Positions 27,100-33,294 of a stretch of 64,000 nt of DNA are shown in pieces. The notes beneath the pieces were generated by a model. It was not told where the DNA came from. It worked only from the letters and a program-made list of their open reading frames with translations, and made no database searches. The DNA is from Gammaproteobacteria bacterium (GTDB lineage Bacteria > Pseudomonadota > Gammaproteobacteria > Pseudomonadales > UBA5518): NCBI GenBank assembly GCA_016705365.1, contig JADIYI010000008.1, positions 767,700-831,699 of the forward strand, given 5' to 3'. How positions within the stretch are numbered: position 1 is the stretch's first letter; every line of letters begins with the position of its first letter. The position numbers were made by a program, and so were the translations under genes.

Positions 27100-28509
27100 A
27101 TGTCATTGGTCACCGTCCCGGACGGCAGAGCGACGCCGCAACCGGCGCTGACTCCGATCGGCCATGTGACCGAGGTGCAGGGTCCGGTGGTGGTGATACG
27201 CTGCCAGACCTTGCCACCCCTGCGCCAGGCGCTCGACGCGCGGACCGACGGTCACAGCTATCTGTGCGAAGTGCATCAGCACCTCGACGAACATCATGTG
27301 CGGGCGATCATTCTGCACCGCTCGGCCGGCCTGCAGCGCGGCACGCCGGTCTTCGATACCGGCAGCCCGCTGCACGTACCGATGTCGCCGGATTGCCTGG
27401 GACGCGTGCTGAACGTGTTCGGCGAACCCATCGACGGCATGGCGCCGTTGCACCCCGATCACTACCGCAACATCCACAGCGCGCCAATGCCGCTGAACCG
27501 GGTCACCAGCAGCGAGACCATACTCGAGACTGGCATCAAGGTGGTCGATCTGCTGTGTCCCTTCGTGCGCGGCGGCAAGACCGGCCTGCTCGGCGGCGCC
27601 GGTGTGGGCAAGACCATGCTGATCATGGAGTTCATGCACGCGATCACCCACATCCACCACGGCCTGTCGGTGTTTGCCGGTGTCGGCGAGCGCATCCGCG
27701 AAGGTCATGAACTGTGGCACGAGATGCATGCCGCGGGCGTCCTGCCGAATTCGCTGCTGGTCTACGGCGAAATGGACGAGAGCCCGGGAGTGCGGTTTCG
27801 GGTCGCACTGGCCGCGCTGACCTATGCGGAGTACCTGCGCGATTCGCAGCAGAAGGAAGTGCTGTTCGTGGTCGACAACGTGTTCCGTTTCGTGCAGGCC
27901 GGCAGCGAGATATCGAGCCTGCTCGGGCGCATGCCGGCCACGGTCGGCTACCAGCCGACGCTCTCGACCGAGGTCGCGGAACTCGAGGAGCGCATCAATT
28001 CATCGGCCGAGGGCGCCATCACCTCGGTGCAGGCGGTCTACGTGCCGGCCGATGACATGACCGACCCGGCGGTCAGCGAGATACTCAGCCACCTCGACAC
28101 CAACGTGATTCTCTCGCGCGCCCAGGCCAGCCAGGGCATCTATCCGGCGGTTGATCCGCTGGCCTCGAAGACCAAGCTGATGGACCGTCGCGTGCTCGGC
28201 GAGCGTCACTACCGTGTTGCGCATGCGGTGCAGGAACACCTCGCGCGCTACCAGGAGCTCGAGGACATGATCGCGATGCTCGGCATGGAGGAGTTGTCGG
28301 AGGAAGACCAGCGCGTGGTAAAGCGCGCGCGGCGCCTGCAGCGCTACCTCACGCAGCCGTTCTTCGTGACCCAGGAGCACTCGGGGATTCCCGGAGTCAG
28401 CGTTCCGCTCGCGCAGACGCTGGCCGACTGCGAGGCCTTCCTCGAAGGAAAATACGATGCGCTGCCCGAGGACGATTGCTACATGAAAGGCGCCATGGAG
28501 CAGATCTGA
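27100..28509 (+). CDS. atpD: N-type (alternative) F1Fo ATPase beta subunit
   Basis: Walker [12 protein letters not shown]. Other blocks seen: [33 protein letters not shown]. It is the first gene of a beta-epsilon-Q-a-c-b-alpha-gamma operon. The start was trimmed to the ATG at 27100. Confidence 0.93.
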
Positions 28510-28510
28510 G

Positions 28511-28927
28511 ATGAGCGCGCGGTTCCGCATGGAGGTCTATGACAGCAGGCAACTGGCGTGTGTCGAGGAGGTCTGGCAATTCGTCGGCGAGGACGCCAGC
28601 GGTTGCTTCGGGCTGATGGCGCATCATCAGCGCTTCATGACCGTGCTGGAGAGCGGGCTCGCGCGCTTCCGCCACGGCCTTGACGATGCCGTTGCCGACT
28701 GGGAGTACCTGGCCTTTCCGGGTGCGCTGCTGTCGTTCGAGGACAACGTGCTGAGGATCATTGCACGGCGCTTCTGGCGGCACGCGGATTTTGACCAGAT
28801 CAGCCGCATCCTCGAGGAGCAGATGCTGCGCGACCAGCAGGCCAGCCAGCAGTTGCGCCTGAGCCTTGCAAAGATCGAGGAAAACATGATGTTGCGTATC
28901 TGGGAACTCAAGAAGCACCAGGCATGA
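28511..28927 (+). CDS. atpC: N-type ATPase epsilon subunit
   Basis: 138 aa, starting 1 nt after the atpD stop. The size, position, and beta-sandwich-then-helical layout fit epsilon. Sequence-level recognition is weak. Confidence 0.7.
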   Translation: MSARFRMEVYDSRQLACVEEVWQFVGEDASGCFGLMAHHQRFMTVLESGLARFRHGLDDAVADWEYLAFPGALLSFEDNVLRIIARRFWRHADFDQISRILEEQMLRDQQASQQLRLSLAKIEENMMLRIWELKKHQA

Positions 28928-29211
28928 CCATCGACGAGCGCGAGAAGCAGCAACTGGAGAAGCGCATCGCCAACCAGGCCCGGCGTATCCACCGCGCGCG
29001 TCGCGAGCACAACACGATGCTCGCGGAACTCGCGCACTTCGGCAGCCTGGGCTTTCTGTTCGTGATCCCGGTGGTGATCGGCGCCTATCTCGGCAGCTGG
29101 CTGGATGGCAGGTACACGGGTTTCCAGACCAGCTGGACCGTCAGCCTGATCCTGCTCGGTGTCACGATCGGCATCGGTAATGTATACCTGTTCATCAAGG
29201 ACAAGGACTGA
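28924..29211 (+). CDS. AtpZ/AtpI-family small membrane protein (AtpQ of N-ATPase operons)
   Basis: ATGA overlap with atpC. It has two TM helices with an LGSWLDGRY...W loop, typical of the 'ATPase gene 1' family. Confidence 0.75.
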   Translation: MTIDEREKQQLEKRIANQARRIHRARREHNTMLAELAHFGSLGFLFVIPVVIGAYLGSWLDGRYTGFQTSWTVSLILLGVTIGIGNVYLFIKDKD

Positions 29212-30960: not shown

Positions 30961-32449
30961 GCCATTGCTGCTGGCGCGCGAGGCGCTCGGGCAACTCGGG
31001 CAGCTCGAGCAGTGGATCGAGCACTACGAGCTGCGCCTGCGCGCAACCGAACAGGGTGTGGTGAGCTCGGTTGGCGATGGCATTGCCTGGATCAGCGGGC
31101 TGCCCTCGGCCGCCATCGACGAGATCCTGTTGTTCCAGGACGGCAGCCGGGGCGTGGTCTACCACCTCGGCGAGAGCAGCGTCGGCGCGATCATGCTGCA
31201 GCAGACACAGCAGCTCGCGGCCGGCTGCAAGGTGCATCTCAGCAAGCGGCAGATGAGCATTGCCACGGGAGACACGCTGCTCGGGCGCGTGATCAATCCG
31301 CTCGGCGAGGTGCTCGACGGCGGCGAGGCGCCGCGTGACACGCAGCACCGCCCGCTCGACACACGCTCGCCGGGCATCGTCGAGCGCGATTTCGTGCACG
31401 ATCCGCTCTACATGGGCAGCAAGATCATCGACACGCTGATACCCGTCGGACGCGGCCAGCGCCAGCTGATCATCGGTGACGATGGCCTCGGCCGAAGCTC
31501 GCTCGCGATGGATGCGATCATCAACCAGCGCGGACGCGATGTGTACTGCGTCTACGTTATGATCGGCCAGCGCCGCTCCAGCGTGGTCAGCACCCTGAAT
31601 GCCCTCAAGCATTTCGGCGCCATCGATTACACCACCGTGGTGGTCAGCGAGGCCAGCGCGCTGCCGGGGCTGTCCTATATCGCGCCATTCGCGGGCTGCG
31701 CCATCGCCGAGGCCTGGATGTATCGCGGCAAGGACGTACTGATCGTCTACGACGATCTCAGCACCCACGCACATGCCTATCGCGAGCTGTCGCTGCTGTT
31801 GCGCCGCCCGCCCGGACGCGAGGCCTACCCCGGCGACATTTTCTTCCTGCATTCGCGCCTGCTGGAGCGCGCCACCTGTCTCAACGCGAGCTGCGGCGGG
31901 GGCAGCATCACTGCTCTGCCGATCGTGGAAACCCAGCTCGGCGAGATTGCCTCCTATATCCCGACCAACCTGATCTCGATCACCGATGGCCAGATCTATC
32001 TCAGCCAGGCCCTGTTCCAAGGTGGCTTCCGGCCATCGATCGACATCAGCAAATCGGTATCGCGTATCGGCGGCAAGGCGCAACCCGAGGCGATCAAGAA
32101 CGAGGCGAGCAGGATGAAGCTCGATTACCTGCAATTCCTCGAACTCGAGGTGTTCACGCGTTTTGGTGCGCGCCCCGAAACCGGCCTGCAGAAGAAACTG
32201 CAGCGCGGCCGGATCCTGCGCGAGCTGCTGAAGCAGGACCGGCTGAAACCGGTCAGCGAGTGTTTCAACCTGGGCTGGTTGATCGGCTTCAACGAGGACC
32301 TGTTCGATGGCAAGCCGCTCGAGGAGTTGCAGAGTTGCATGGATGCACTGCAGGAACAGATTGCCGCCAGCGCACTCGGGCTCGATTCCCCGCGCAAGGA
32401 GTGGATCGAGCAGCTCGAGGCGTGGCTCGGCATTCCGGGATCGGGCTGA
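30950..32449 (+). CDS. atpA: N-type ATPase alpha subunit
   Basis: Alpha-type blocks seen: [71 protein letters not shown]. The Walker A reads GDDGLGRSS. Confidence 0.92.
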
Positions 32450-32451
32450 CC

Positions 32452-33294
32452 GTGTCGCGCCGCCACGTGATCGACCGTCGCCTGCAGATGCTGGCCGACA
32501 TCCGCGGCATCATGGACAGCATCAAGACGCTGGCCCACATGGAAACCCAGCGCCTGGCGCCGGTCCTGCCGGTCCAGCAGCTGTGCGTGCAGCGGGTGCG
32601 GCAAATGGCCGCGGATTTTGCGTCCGAGCACGCGCTGCCCGCACTGAACGGGCGCGCGGAAAACCCGCTGCTGATCGTGATCGGCGCCGAGCGCGGGCTG
32701 TGCGGCGATTTCAACAAGCAGATGCAGGAGGCGCTGGAACACTTGCCCGCGACAGCCGCGCCGCGCGCGATCGTTTGCCTCGGCACGCGTCTGGGGCAGA
32801 AGCTCGAAGGCCGCCCCGGCCTGCTGGCGCAATTGTCGGGTGCCACGATCGCCGACGATGTGCCGGCCGTGATTCGCCAGCTGCTCGAGCGTTGCGCCGC
32901 GCTGCAGAGCGAGCAGCATCTGCCCTCTCTCGCCCTGCTGTATCACGGTGCCGGCGACGAGGGCATCCGGCTCGATCCGTTGCTCTCGCCCTTTCTGGAA
33001 GCGGATCGGGTGGCCCCGCGCGCGCCGCTGCTGCTGAACCTCGAGCCGCAGGTATTCGTGCACGGACTGCTGCAGCAGTACCTGCACACGGTGCTGCTGC
33101 ACGCCTGCTATTCCTCGCTGCTGGCCGAAAACAGAAAGCGCGTGGCGCATCTCGAAAATGCGGTGACGCACCTCGACGAGGAACACGACCGTCTCGAGCA
33201 CAAGCGCAACCGCCTGTACCAGGAGGACATCATCGCGGAGCTGGAAATCATCCTGGTGGCCGATCAGTCGACGGGTGAGTTCGTGCGCCGCTGA
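32452..33294 (+). CDS. atpG: N-type ATPase gamma subunit
   Basis: The GTG at 32452 lies 2 nt after the atpA stop. The N-terminal I..R...I..I.SIKT...M and the C-terminal LYQEDIIAELEIIL (gamma C-terminal helix) fit gamma. The exact start is uncertain; the first ATG is 12 codons downstream. Confidence 0.8.
   Translation: MSRRHVIDRRLQMLADIRGIMDSIKTLAHMETQRLAPVLPVQQLCVQRVRQMAADFASEHALPALNGRAENPLLIVIGAERGLCGDFNKQMQEALEHLPATAAPRAIVCLGTRLGQKLEGRPGLLAQLSGATIADDVPAVIRQLLERCAALQSEQHLPSLALLYHGAGDEGIRLDPLLSPFLEADRVAPRAPLLLNLEPQVFVHGLLQQYLHTVLLHACYSSLLAENRKRVAHLENAVTHLDEEHDRLEHKRNRLYQEDIIAELEIILVADQSTGEFVRR

What the first reader, a model, noticed from the sequence alone, without database searches (positions are those of the whole stretch)
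27100..33294. Complete alternative N-type F1Fo ATPase operon
The gene order is beta-epsilon-AtpQ-a-c-b-alpha-gamma, with 1-11-nt gaps or overlaps throughout. There is no delta gene, and the b subunit is extended to 248 aa. This matches the published N-ATPase operon type rather than a housekeeping atpIBEFHAGDC operon. These laterally distributed enzymes are thought to act as ATP-driven ion pumps and are little studied. The upstream neighbour is an acyl-CoA carboxylase cluster, and the downstream neighbour is NnrS.
Basis: partly seen in the sequence, partly recalled or inferred. Interest (0 to 1): 0.6.

Follow-up and report, generated by a model that had tools for sequence, protein, structure and literature searches.

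The report
N-like rotary ATPase operon without AtpR
This is a real, complete eight-gene operon for an extra rotary ATPase related to the little-studied N-type ion pumps, but it belongs to a widespread sub-type, already noted in other bacteria, that lacks the hallmark AtpR gene and looks proton-driven rather than sodium-driven.

Summary
Positions 27100-33294 (+) carry eight intact genes in the order beta, epsilon, AtpQ, a, c, b-delta fusion, alpha, gamma. There is no delta gene.

The N-ATPase label is only partly right:
- The published N-ATPase operon is atpDCQRBEFAG, and AtpR is its hallmark. AtpR is absent here, with only 4 nt between atpQ and atpB. A 78-sequence AtpR profile finds nothing in the window.
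- All seven NCBIfam "alternate F1F0" models score below their cut-offs.
- The c subunit has Met instead of the helix-1 Glu, and Glu-Ser-Leu..Tyr instead of ESTxxY. This predicts H+ coupling, not Na+.

The operon belongs to a sharply bounded clade:
- It includes 80 species-level genome loci plus Legionella and Sulfuricella plasmids.
- Gene order is identical in 65 of 65 complete loci.
- AtpR is never present, and the c-subunit ion site is invariant in 76 of 76.
- The clade has its own change in the alpha P-loop, Lys to Arg.
- Every subunit scores higher against N-type than against canonical profiles.

The same variant was described in Nitrospiraceae in 2025, so this is a new member of a known but uncharacterised kind. 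The direction of function, and whether the same genome holds a canonical operon, remain untested.

The parts
27100..28509 (+). atpD, catalytic beta subunit (469 aa)
   Evidence: PF00006 at 225 bits. TIGR01039 scores 584 against a cut-off of 463, whereas alt_F1F0 beta scores 584.5 against 752. Walker-A GGAGVGKT (K171, T172), catalytic E197 and R198, Walker-B D259 and the EELSEED loop are all present.
28511..28927 (+). atpC, epsilon subunit (138 aa)
   Evidence: PF02823 at 32 bits, above its cut-off of 27. The best NCBIfam models are all far below their cut-offs. It lies 1 nt after the beta stop codon.
28924..29211 (+). atpQ (AtpZ/'gene 1' family), a small membrane protein with two hydrophobic stretches (95 aa). 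It fills the whole space between epsilon and a.
   Evidence: PF09527 at 47 bits and TIGR02230 at 52.6 against a cut-off of 46.7. It is not AtpR: there is no PF12966 hit. It overlaps epsilon by 4 nt and ends 4 nt before a.
29216..29914 (+). atpB, Fo a subunit (232 aa)
   Evidence: NF009954 (PRK13420) scores 340 against a cut-off of 272, whereas alt a scores 205 against 302. R162 (E. coli R210), N166, H193 and Q200 are conserved.
29907..30185 (+). atpE, c subunit (92 aa) with a single membrane carboxylate, E63
   Evidence: PF00137. Its ion site is Met30 on helix 1 and E63-S64-L65..Y68 on helix 2, and this site is identical in 76 of 76 clade members. Among solved chains it scores highest against the fused double-hairpin c1 subunit in entry 4bem; the best single-hairpin match is 2wie, which I take to be the H+-binding Spirulina c15 ring.
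30214..30960 (+). atpF, b subunit fused to a delta-like C-terminal domain (248 aa, GTG start)
   Evidence: PF00430 covers residues 9-138 and PF00213 (OSCP) covers 171-241 at 42 bits, above its cut-off of 22.3. It aligns to alt_F1F0_F0_B over positions 1-242 of 246, but at 120 bits against a cut-off of 225.
30950..32449 (+). atpA, alpha subunit (499 aa) with an altered non-catalytic P-loop, GDDGLGRSS
   Evidence: NF009884 (PRK13343) scores 685 against a cut-off of 554, whereas alt alpha scores 564.5 against 750.5. The Arg finger R372 is kept and the Walker Lys is replaced by R182. The change is specific to the clade.
32452..33294 (+). atpG, gamma subunit (280 aa from GTG 32452; alternative GTG 32422 gives 290 aa)
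   Evidence: PF00231 at 79 bits. Public gene calls use either start. The gene ends 9 nt before the convergent NnrS gene.

Best explanation
The eight genes encode a complete F-type rotary ATPase: an alpha3-beta3 head, a gamma-epsilon central stalk, the a subunit and a c-ring in the membrane, a b-delta fusion as peripheral stalk, and the small membrane protein AtpQ.

The operon belongs to a large, sharply bounded and laterally spread clade. The clade shares the N-ATPase architecture but differs from it in three linked ways:
- It never carries AtpR.
- Its c subunit always has one membrane carboxylate. Met replaces the helix-1 Glu/Gln, and helix 2 reads Glu-Ser-Leu..Tyr.
- Its alpha subunit usually has Arg in place of the Walker-A Lys.

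Shown here: the genes and their families, intact catalytic and proton-path residues, membership of the clade, and the absence of AtpR.

Inferred:
- The enzyme is coupled to H+, not Na+.
- AtpR became dispensable when the second c-ring carboxylate was lost.
- The enzyme is accessory to a canonical F1Fo.
- Its c-ring is probably large, because its helix-1 packing motif resembles that of the c17 ring of B. pseudomallei. That would make it a 'low-gear' enzyme with many H+ per ATP.
- It most likely spends ATP to hold membrane potential and cytoplasmic pH when respiration is limiting. The same property would let it make ATP at low proton-motive force.
For: Gene content and families:
- establish the eight genes and their family matches.
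- Catalytic beta residues, the alpha Arg finger, a-subunit R162 and c-subunit E63 are intact.

Clade membership:
- 80 species-level loci have alpha at 60-67% identity. Plasmid copies occur in Legionella and Sulfuricella at 57-59%.
- 65 of 65 complete loci have the same order, beta-eps-Q-a-c-b-alpha-gamma.
- The clade is monophyletic in 199-200 of 200 NJ bootstraps.

Absence of AtpR:
- Eight AtpR queries give no BLAST hit.
- The median gap from Q to a is 6 nt.
- A 78-sequence AtpR HMM gives a best E of 0.16 over 30,928 six-frame segments, with nothing in the window, against 85 hits in control loci.

H+ coupling:
- The ion-site columns read M, M, E, S, L, Y in 76 of 76 clade members. AtpR-bearing operons instead have E at the helix-1 position in 66 of 71, Q in 4 and M in 1.
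- Leu at the Thr67 position is shared with the c-ring chains 2wie, 3v3c and 4mjn (alignments), which I take from memory to be H+-binding cyanobacterial and chloroplast rings.
- The same inference was made for Nitrospiraceae homologues (PMC12342949).

Affinity to the N type:
- Window proteins against N, N2 and F profile HMMs score a 219/198/107, c 95/91/51, b 128/130/43, gamma 66/77/29, alpha 558/543/500 and beta 600/603/573.
- The seven-subunit tree groups the clade with the B. pseudomallei type in 163 of 200 bootstraps.

Large ring:
- The clade keeps the AxAxG part of the AxGxAxAxG motif that was linked to the c17 ring.

Accessory status:
- Copies are plasmid-borne, flanks are not conserved, and the literature describes N-type enzymes beside F-type ones.
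Against: - No experiment exists for any member of this clade. Ion specificity, ring size and direction of function are all inferred from sequence.
- B. pseudomallei showed that sequence-based ion predictions can fail for N-type c subunits.
- The deep branching order is unresolved. F1 genes favour grouping the clade with N2 (146 of 200), Fo genes favour grouping it with N (120 of 200), and alpha/beta paralogue rooting supports no order. The clade could therefore be an independent lineage rather than an N-ATPase that lost AtpR.
- One AtpR-bearing locus (L174) also has Met on helix 1.
- The altered alpha P-loop might impair non-catalytic nucleotide binding and favour MgADP inhibition of hydrolysis. 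That argues against a dedicated pump.
- A canonical operon in the same genome was not demonstrated.
- No promoter or terminator was recognised.
Confidence: 0.7

Rival explanations
1. It works mainly as an ATP synthase specialised for low proton-motive force, not as a pump. A large c-ring lowers the threshold for synthesis, and hydrolysis is self-limited.
For: - The packing motif is shared with the c17 ring, which has 5.7 H+ per ATP. At a normal proton-motive force such an enzyme would run towards synthesis; this is thermodynamic inference.
- The alpha Walker Lys is Arg in 68 of 80 clade members. Alpha K175A/T176A mutants lose non-catalytic nucleotide binding and steady-state ATPase activity through MgADP inhibition (PMC4171097).
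- ProAD reports a Chloroflexota genus whose only rotary enzyme is an H+ N-type, so N-type enzymes can presumably synthesise ATP.
- The hosts include many chemolithotrophs: nitrifiers, Fe and S oxidisers and methanotrophs.
Against: - Lys to Arg is conservative and may keep nucleotide binding.
- The ring size of this clade is unknown.
- Deleting the N-type operon in M. acetivorans had no effect on ATP synthesis (cited).
- The published view of N-ATPases is ATP-driven pumping.
Confidence: 0.25
2. It is a classical Na+-translocating N-ATPase as published.
For: The gene order starts with beta and epsilon, AtpQ is present, there is no delta gene and b is long. The alt_F1F0 models are among the top hits.
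Against: - AtpR is absent.
- The c subunit lacks two Na+ ligands.
- All seven alt_F1F0 models fall below their curated cut-offs.
- Alpha identity to bona fide N-type operons is about 47-50%, no closer than to canonical alpha at 45-48%.
- Classical N loci carry AtpR wherever the contig leaves room for it.
Confidence: 0.05
3. It is the organism's only, housekeeping ATP synthase.
For: No canonical atp gene lies in the 64-kb window. The rest of the genome could not be searched. A Chloroflexota genus with only an N-type enzyme exists.
Against: - The host is labelled Gammaproteobacteria. By general knowledge, canonical F1Fo is near-universal in that group.
- The same operon type is plasmid-borne in Legionella and Sulfuricella.
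- Flanks are not conserved in 80 species.
- Nitrospirales carry it in addition to the canonical enzyme.
Confidence: 0.04
4. It is a decaying, non-functional remnant of an N-ATPase operon. This was suggested for AtpR-less loci in PMC4154653.
For: It lacks a subunit thought to be needed. A few related loci are split or have broken genes: L036, L063, L048 and L016.
Against: - All eight ORFs are intact.
- Catalytic and proton-path residues are conserved.
- Gene order is identical in 65 of 65 complete loci, and the c-subunit ion site is invariant across distant hosts.
- Within-clade identity is 71-79% for alpha, beta and c.
Confidence: 0.03

Closest known systems
AtpR-less 'N-type' operons of Nitrospiraceae (ISME J 2025, PMC12342949) and the two atpR-less loci of Nitrosococcus halophilus (PMC4154653)
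   Same: The combination is exactly the same: no atpR, a c subunit without Glu32, and Thr67 replaced by Leu. [quoted passage not shown] Nitrospira loci L034, L048, L051 and L083 fall in the same clade.
   Different: The host is different: an uncultured gammaproteobacterium known from MAGs. Its alpha is 60-67% identical to the nearest species-level relatives retrieved. The papers did not report the alpha P-loop change or the breadth of the clade.
Classical N-ATPase (Dibrova et al. 2010; NCBIfam alt_F1F0 models), for example Picosynechococcus PCC 7002 pAQ7 (L085) and Acaryochloris pREB4 (L089)
   Same: Beta and epsilon come first, AtpQ follows epsilon, there is no delta gene, and b of about 250 aa has a delta-like C-terminus. 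The type is laterally mobile and often plasmid-borne.
   Different: The classical type has AtpR (PF12966) and a c subunit with a helix-1 Glu, usually with ESTxxY. Its alpha P-loop is GDRxTGKT. Identity to the window is about 50% for alpha, 39% for a and 46% for c.
B. pseudomallei-type N-ATPase (c17 ring, H+-coupled; EMBO Rep 2017), represented here by Paraburkholderia, Azospirillum, Methylocystis and Sphingobium loci L092 and L094-L096
   Same: It is the nearest group in the seven-subunit tree (163 of 200 bootstraps). H+ coupling was shown experimentally. The helix-1 AxAxG packing motif is shared.
   Different: It has AtpR and a two-carboxylate c subunit, E..ETM..Y. It keeps the normal alpha P-loop.
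Canonical F1Fo ATP synthase (E. coli atpIBEFHAGDC, L088)
   Same: The catalytic chemistry and the core subunits are the same. Beta, alpha, a and c pass the generic TIGR equivalog cut-offs.
   Different: The canonical operon has separate delta and short b genes, AtpI, and a different gene order. Identity to the window is only 27-29% for a and c, and b, gamma and epsilon fall below the generic cut-offs.

Membership tests
N-ATPase sensu Dibrova et al. 2010 | [quoted passage not shown] | tested here: not met
   There are only 4 nt between atpQ and atpB. The single small protein is PF09527, not PF12966. BLAST with eight AtpR sequences and a 78-sequence AtpR HMM find nothing in the window.
N-ATPase sensu Dibrova et al. 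2010 | Operon begins with atpD-atpC and ends with atpB-E-F-A-G; AtpQ (PF09527) follows epsilon | tested here: met
N-ATPase sensu Dibrova et al. 2010 | No atpH (delta) gene; long b subunit with a delta-like C-terminal region | tested here: met
   The b subunit is 248 aa, with PF00430 plus PF00213 at residues 171-241 (42 bits). It aligns full-length to alt_F1F0_F0_B. No delta hit occurs in the window.
N-ATPase sensu Dibrova et al. 2010 | c subunit with a second Glu on helix 1 and the ESTxxY Na+-ligand set | tested here: not met
   The window has Met30 on helix 1 and E63-S64-L65..Y68 on helix 2.
N-ATPase sensu Dibrova et al. 2010 | Subunits branch with N-ATPases, apart from canonical F-ATPases | tested here: inconclusive
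   The clade is separate from canonical F (200 of 200). All subunits score higher against N and N2 HMMs than against F HMMs. The deep order is unresolved, and the paralogue-rooted tree gives no support for grouping the clade with N and N2.
N-ATPase sensu Dibrova et al. 2010 | Always a second copy beside a canonical F- or A-type enzyme | not testable with these tools
   Only the window and 10-kb flanks of the source MAGs can be read. A protein search meant to find the canonical alpha returned only Acinetobacter clusters. The indirect evidence is plasmid-borne copies in Legionella and Sulfuricella.
NCBIfam 'alternate F1F0 ATPase' models (TIGR03305/03166/03306/03322/03321/03324/03323) | Score at or above the curated cut-off | tested here: not met
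   Scores against cut-offs are beta 584.5/752, eps 32.8/100.1, a 204.8/302.1, c 94.6/130.85, b 120.2/224.7, alpha 564.5/750.5 and gamma 55.9/282.35.
AtpR-less, one-carboxylate N-like clade (as described for Nitrospiraceae, PMC12342949; NCBIfam NF009884/NF009954) | No atpR; c subunit lacking Glu32 and with Thr67 replaced by Leu; other genes N-like; alpha and a pass NF009884 and NF009954 | tested here: met
   Alpha scores 685 against a cut-off of 554 and a scores 340 against 272. The ion site is identical to 76 of 76 clade members. Gene order is identical to 65 of 65 complete loci. The clade is monophyletic in 199-200 of 200 bootstraps.
Canonical F1Fo ATP synthase | Separate delta subunit, short b subunit, atp(I)BEFHAGDC order | tested here: not met
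   There is no delta or AtpI, and the gene order is different. The generic models for b, gamma and epsilon fall below their cut-offs.

The most novel reading that the evidence does not exclude
The AtpR-less clade is not merely an N-ATPase that lost a gene. It is a separate lineage of F-type rotary enzyme. In this reading:
- Its alpha subunits no longer use the non-catalytic nucleotide sites (Walker Lys to Arg).
- Its c-ring is very large.
- It therefore acts as a low-gear ATP synthase or proton-motive-force buffer for chemolithotrophs and feast-famine bacteria.
- The joint loss of AtpR and the helix-1 carboxylate identifies AtpR as a chaperone or partner specific to two-carboxylate c-rings.
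Probability: 0.15. Interest if true: 0.65.

Novelty: new member of a known kind. Interest (0 to 1): 0.4.

Why it matters
Fifteen years after N-type ATPases were named, neither their function nor that of AtpR is settled. This operon belongs to a large natural AtpR-less clade, found here in at least 80 species and on conjugative plasmids. In that clade, loss of AtpR coincides with loss of the second c-ring carboxylate. AtpR-bearing operons have Glu or Gln at that position in 70 of 71 cases, whereas the clade has Met in 76 of 76.

That pattern gives a direct test of the proposal that AtpR pairs with the extra Glu. It also gives a simpler eight-gene system for heterologous expression.

There is a practical point for annotation. 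Rules that require two small genes between epsilon and a, or that apply the alt_F1F0 cut-offs, will file these enzymes as ordinary F0F1 ATP synthases, as NCBI does for this locus. Genomes then appear to hold two 'housekeeping' synthases.

For this window alone the result is modest: a well-preserved member of a variant that has already been noticed.

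Tried and rejected
- **Canonical operon in the same genome.** No other atp gene lies in the 64-kb window. A database search with a canonical gammaproteobacterial alpha listed only the 120 best hits, all from Acinetobacter and close relatives, so it could not reach the source MAG. This route was abandoned.
- **The source species among GTDB representatives.** The host is known only as 'Gammaproteobacteria/Pseudomonadales bacterium' MAGs. The ten other window genes I scanned gave no housekeeping marker.
- **Hidden AtpR.** I checked other frames, the rest of the window and 82 related loci, and found nothing. 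The longer Q-to-a gaps in Methylobacter loci hold no membrane ORF (L041), a toxin-antitoxin pair (L065) or TamA/TamB (L072).
- **Conserved neighbours as a clue to function.** No flanking family is shared by more than 10 of about 80 loci, and none includes the window's neighbours.
- **Promoter and terminator scan.** Nothing exceeded the chance expectation and nothing lay at the operon ends. Rfam found no RNA element near the operon.
- **Compositional sign of recent transfer.** The operon's GC content of 0.63-0.66 matches the window.
- **Rooting the tree with alpha/beta paralogues.** The four groups are solid but their order is not resolved. I therefore do not claim that the clade is nested within the N-ATPases.
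- **Solved structures.** Among the 60 best alpha matches listed, none is named as an N-type enzyme; the nearest alpha is a canonical one and the nearest single-hairpin c subunit is the chain 2wie.

Full report
**Observation**

The + strand between 27100 and 33294 holds eight consecutive ORFs. Public gene calls on contigs that encode the identical beta protein give the same coordinates. Those contigs include three NCBI MAG assemblies, with contigs of up to 2.15 Mb among the four places shown; the cluster look-up lists a longest contig of 3.18 Mb.

Pfam and NCBIfam identify the genes in this order:
- beta, 469 aa
- epsilon, 138 aa
- a PF09527 'gene 1'/AtpQ protein, 95 aa
- a, 232 aa
- c, 92 aa
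- b, 248 aa, whose residues 171-241 match the OSCP/delta family
- alpha, 499 aa
- gamma, 280 aa from GTG 32452 (NCBI prefers GTG 32422)

The junctions are +1, -4, +4, -8, +28, -11 and +2 nt. The operon is therefore tightly packed, apart from a 28-nt gap before b. There is no delta gene.

Upstream lie AtuA, a carboxyltransferase and a biotin carboxylase, followed by a DinB-like gene. Downstream lies a convergent NnrS gene.

**Where the interpretation falls short**

The published N-ATPase operon is atpDCQRBEFAG. Its authors used AtpR to verify membership, found it in every operon and called it the hallmark (PMC2881411). Three defining points fail here.

AtpR is absent:
- atpQ ends 4 nt before atpB, so there is no room for it.
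- The one small protein is PF09527, not PF12966. The corresponding proteins of nine reference operons all hit PF12966.
- BLAST with eight AtpR sequences found nothing in the window.
- A profile built from 78 AtpR sequences also found nothing. Its best E-value over 30,928 six-frame segments of the window and 82 related loci was 0.16. The same profile gave 85 hits in control loci.

The NCBIfam models fail:
- All seven 'alternate F1F0 ATPase' models match, but far below their curated cut-offs. Examples are alpha at 564.5 against 750.5 and gamma at 55.9 against 282.
- The best-scoring models are different, generically named ones. NF009884 for alpha scores 685 against 554, and NF009954 for a scores 340 against 272.

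The c subunit lacks two Na+ ligands:
- It has Met30 where N-type subunits have Glu.
- It has Glu-Ser-Leu..Tyr where they have Glu-Ser-Thr..Tyr.

**What it belongs to**

A scan of one genome per species returned 80 loci whose alpha is 60-67% identical. The hosts include:
- Methylobacter and other methanotrophs
- Nitrosomonas and Nitrospira
- Zetaproteobacteria
- Chromatiales, Thiohalocapsa and Sedimenticola
- Porticoccus, Microbulbifer and Marinobacterium
- Desulfuromusa
- one Chloroflexota MAG

Plasmids of Legionella (three records among the best hits) and Sulfuricella denitrificans carry the same operon at 57-59% alpha identity. Bona fide 'alternate' alphas reach only about 47%, the same as canonical alphas.

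Across these loci:
- 65 contain all eight genes, and all 65 have the window's order.
- The median gap from Q to a is 6 nt.
- Three long loci (L036, L063, L082) lack some genes within the fetched flanks. They may be split operons, as reported for Nitrosococcus halophilus.
- No flanking gene family is conserved.
- The operon's GC content matches its surroundings.

It is an autonomous, mobile module.

**Relationship to other rotary ATPases**

I compared four groups:
- W: the window's clade.
- N: classical AtpR-bearing operons. These were five annotated loci plus 80 metagenome loci found with an a-subunit profile.
- N2: AtpR-bearing operons of Paraburkholderia, Azospirillum, Methylocystis and Sphingobium. 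Their c-subunit site, E..ETM..Y, is that of the B. pseudomallei enzyme.
- F: eight canonical operons.

In neighbour-joining trees each group is monophyletic in 195-200 of 200 bootstraps for the partitions. The order among the groups is not settled:
- F1 genes favour W with N2 (146 of 200).
- Fo genes favour W with N (120 of 200).
- All seven subunits together favour W with N2 (163 of 200).
- Alpha/beta paralogue rooting supports no order.

Profile scores and identities are clearer:
- Every window subunit scores higher against N and N2 profiles than against F profiles, most strongly for a, c, b and gamma.
- Identity for a is 0.39-0.40 to N and N2 against 0.27 to F. For c it is 0.46-0.52 against 0.29.

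Together with the shared gene order, AtpQ and the b-delta fusion, this places the clade in the N-ATPase radiation in the broad sense. It is a distinct branch of that radiation.

**Linked characters of the clade**

The ion-site columns of the c subunit read M, M, E, S, L, Y in 76 of 76 clade members. In AtpR-bearing operons the helix-1 residue is Glu in 66 of 71 cases, Gln in 4 and Met in 1, the last being L174. Every classical locus carries AtpR wherever the contig leaves room for it upstream of a. Loss of AtpR therefore tracks loss of the polar helix-1 residue. This fits the original proposal that AtpR's two membrane Arg residues pair with the extra Glu of the c subunit.

I found no mention of a further clade-specific change in the papers I consulted. 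The alpha P-loop is GD[E/D/N]GLG[R/K][S/T], with Arg in 68 of 80 members and Lys in 12. All N, N2 and F alphas that could be read keep GDRxTGK[T/S].

In Bacillus F1, alpha K175A/T176A abolishes non-catalytic nucleotide binding. It also lowers steady-state ATPase activity through MgADP inhibition (PMC4171097). Whether Lys to Arg has that effect is unknown.

**How it most likely works**

The machinery is intact:
- Beta keeps its Walker A and B motifs, E197, R198 and the EELSEED loop.
- Alpha keeps the Arg finger R372.
- Subunit a keeps R162, N166, H193 and Q200.
- Subunit c keeps E63 and the RQP loop.

With two Na+ ligands missing, and with a Leu also present at that position in the closest single-hairpin c-ring chains (2wie, 3v3c, 4mjn), which I take from memory to be H+-binding rings, the enzyme is predicted to be H+-coupled. 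The Nitrospirales study reached the same conclusion for its homologues.

The helix-1 packing motif keeps the AxAxG of the AxGxAxAxG motif that was linked to the c17 ring of B. pseudomallei. That hints at a large ring and many H+ per ATP. Such an enzyme reverses at a low proton-motive force. It can hold a modest membrane potential cheaply from ATP, or make ATP when the force is low.

Published opinion favours pumping. The altered alpha P-loop, and the existence of bacteria whose only rotary enzyme is an H+ N-type, keep the synthase reading open. I commit to 'accessory, H+-coupled, low-gear, most likely a pump under energy limitation'. The direction of function is the least secure step.

**What is not shown**

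- I could not test whether the same genome has a canonical operon. The window has none, and the one search I tried could not reach the MAG.
- No promoter, terminator or RNA element was recognised at the operon.

**Novelty**

The variant has been noticed before:
- Two atpR-less loci in Nitrosococcus halophilus were reported in 2014.
- AtpR-less operons lacking Glu32 and with Thr67 replaced by Leu were reported in Nitrospiraceae in 2025.
- ProAD counts 893 predicted H+ N-type enzymes.

The window's operon is thus a new member of a known but experimentally untouched kind.

This analysis adds:
- the breadth and sharp boundary of the clade
- the near-perfect link between AtpR and the helix-1 residue
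- the alpha P-loop change
- the caution that the label 'N-ATPase' fails two of its defining tests

Noticed in passing
L090 (Legionella anisa plasmid) 2186-8918 and 9706-14365; L087 (L. fallonii plasmid II) 3194-9344 and 9508-15212; L095 (Methylocystis rosea pGW6_1) 1350-8833 and 9525-14326: Three different ATPase types sit directly beside a TolC / RND-adaptor / CusA-CzcA heavy-metal efflux cluster on plasmids. They are the classical AtpR-bearing type, the AtpR-less type and the B. pseudomallei-like type. The two Legionella plasmids carry different ATPase types in the equivalent position.
   Followed up: partly
window 30950-32449 (alpha residues 176-184, GDDGLGRSS): The Walker-A Lys of the non-catalytic alpha subunit is Arg. 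This is specific to the clade (Arg in 68 of 80 members, Lys in 12). Classical N, B. pseudomallei-type and canonical alphas all keep GDRxTGK[TS].
   Followed up: partly
L065 6841-7549: In a Methylobacter MAG, a MazE-type antitoxin and a PIN-domain toxin are inserted between atpQ and atpB of an otherwise intact operon of the same clade.
   Followed up: yes
L072 2326-7705: TamA- and TamB-like genes (6.2 kb) lie between the atpQ hit and atpB in another Methylobacter bin. This may be a true insertion or an assembly or binning artefact.
   Followed up: partly
L174 (metagenome contig Ga0116147_1000247), c gene just downstream of a at 6001-6693: This is the only AtpR-bearing operon of 71 with Met, rather than Glu or Gln, at the helix-1 ion-site position. 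It is the exception to the link between AtpR and that residue.
   Followed up: no
L036, L063, L082; L048, L016: Some clade members are incomplete within 8-10 kb of flank: beta-epsilon-Q is missing in L036 and L063, and beta in L082. Others have a, b or gamma split into two ORFs. These may be split operons, decay or assembly errors.
   Followed up: partly
L059 and L062: Two copies of the AtpR-less operon occur on different contigs of one MAG (CAVWEI01).
   Followed up: no
window 40838-40922 (+): An Rfam sRNA-Xcc1 (RF02221) match at 56.4 bits, above the gathering score of 53. It is the only RNA family hit in the window.
   Followed up: no
window 14-1459, 12034-14016, 47650-49257, 50440-53499, 53717-57790 (+) and 57960-59981 (-): Other window genes are a WS/DGAT wax-ester synthase, a gamma-glutamyltranspeptidase, an acyl/AMP ligase, an AcrB-type RND pump and two NRPS-like proteins (C-A and A-PCP). 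None of the ten genes scanned is a housekeeping marker that could place the host.
   Followed up: partly
window 27036-27099: The 64-nt spacer before atpD contains the direct repeat CACTGG-TATA-CACTGG. No sigma-70-like promoter was found, so the operon may be read through from the upstream carboxylase and DinB-like genes or use another promoter type.
   Followed up: no
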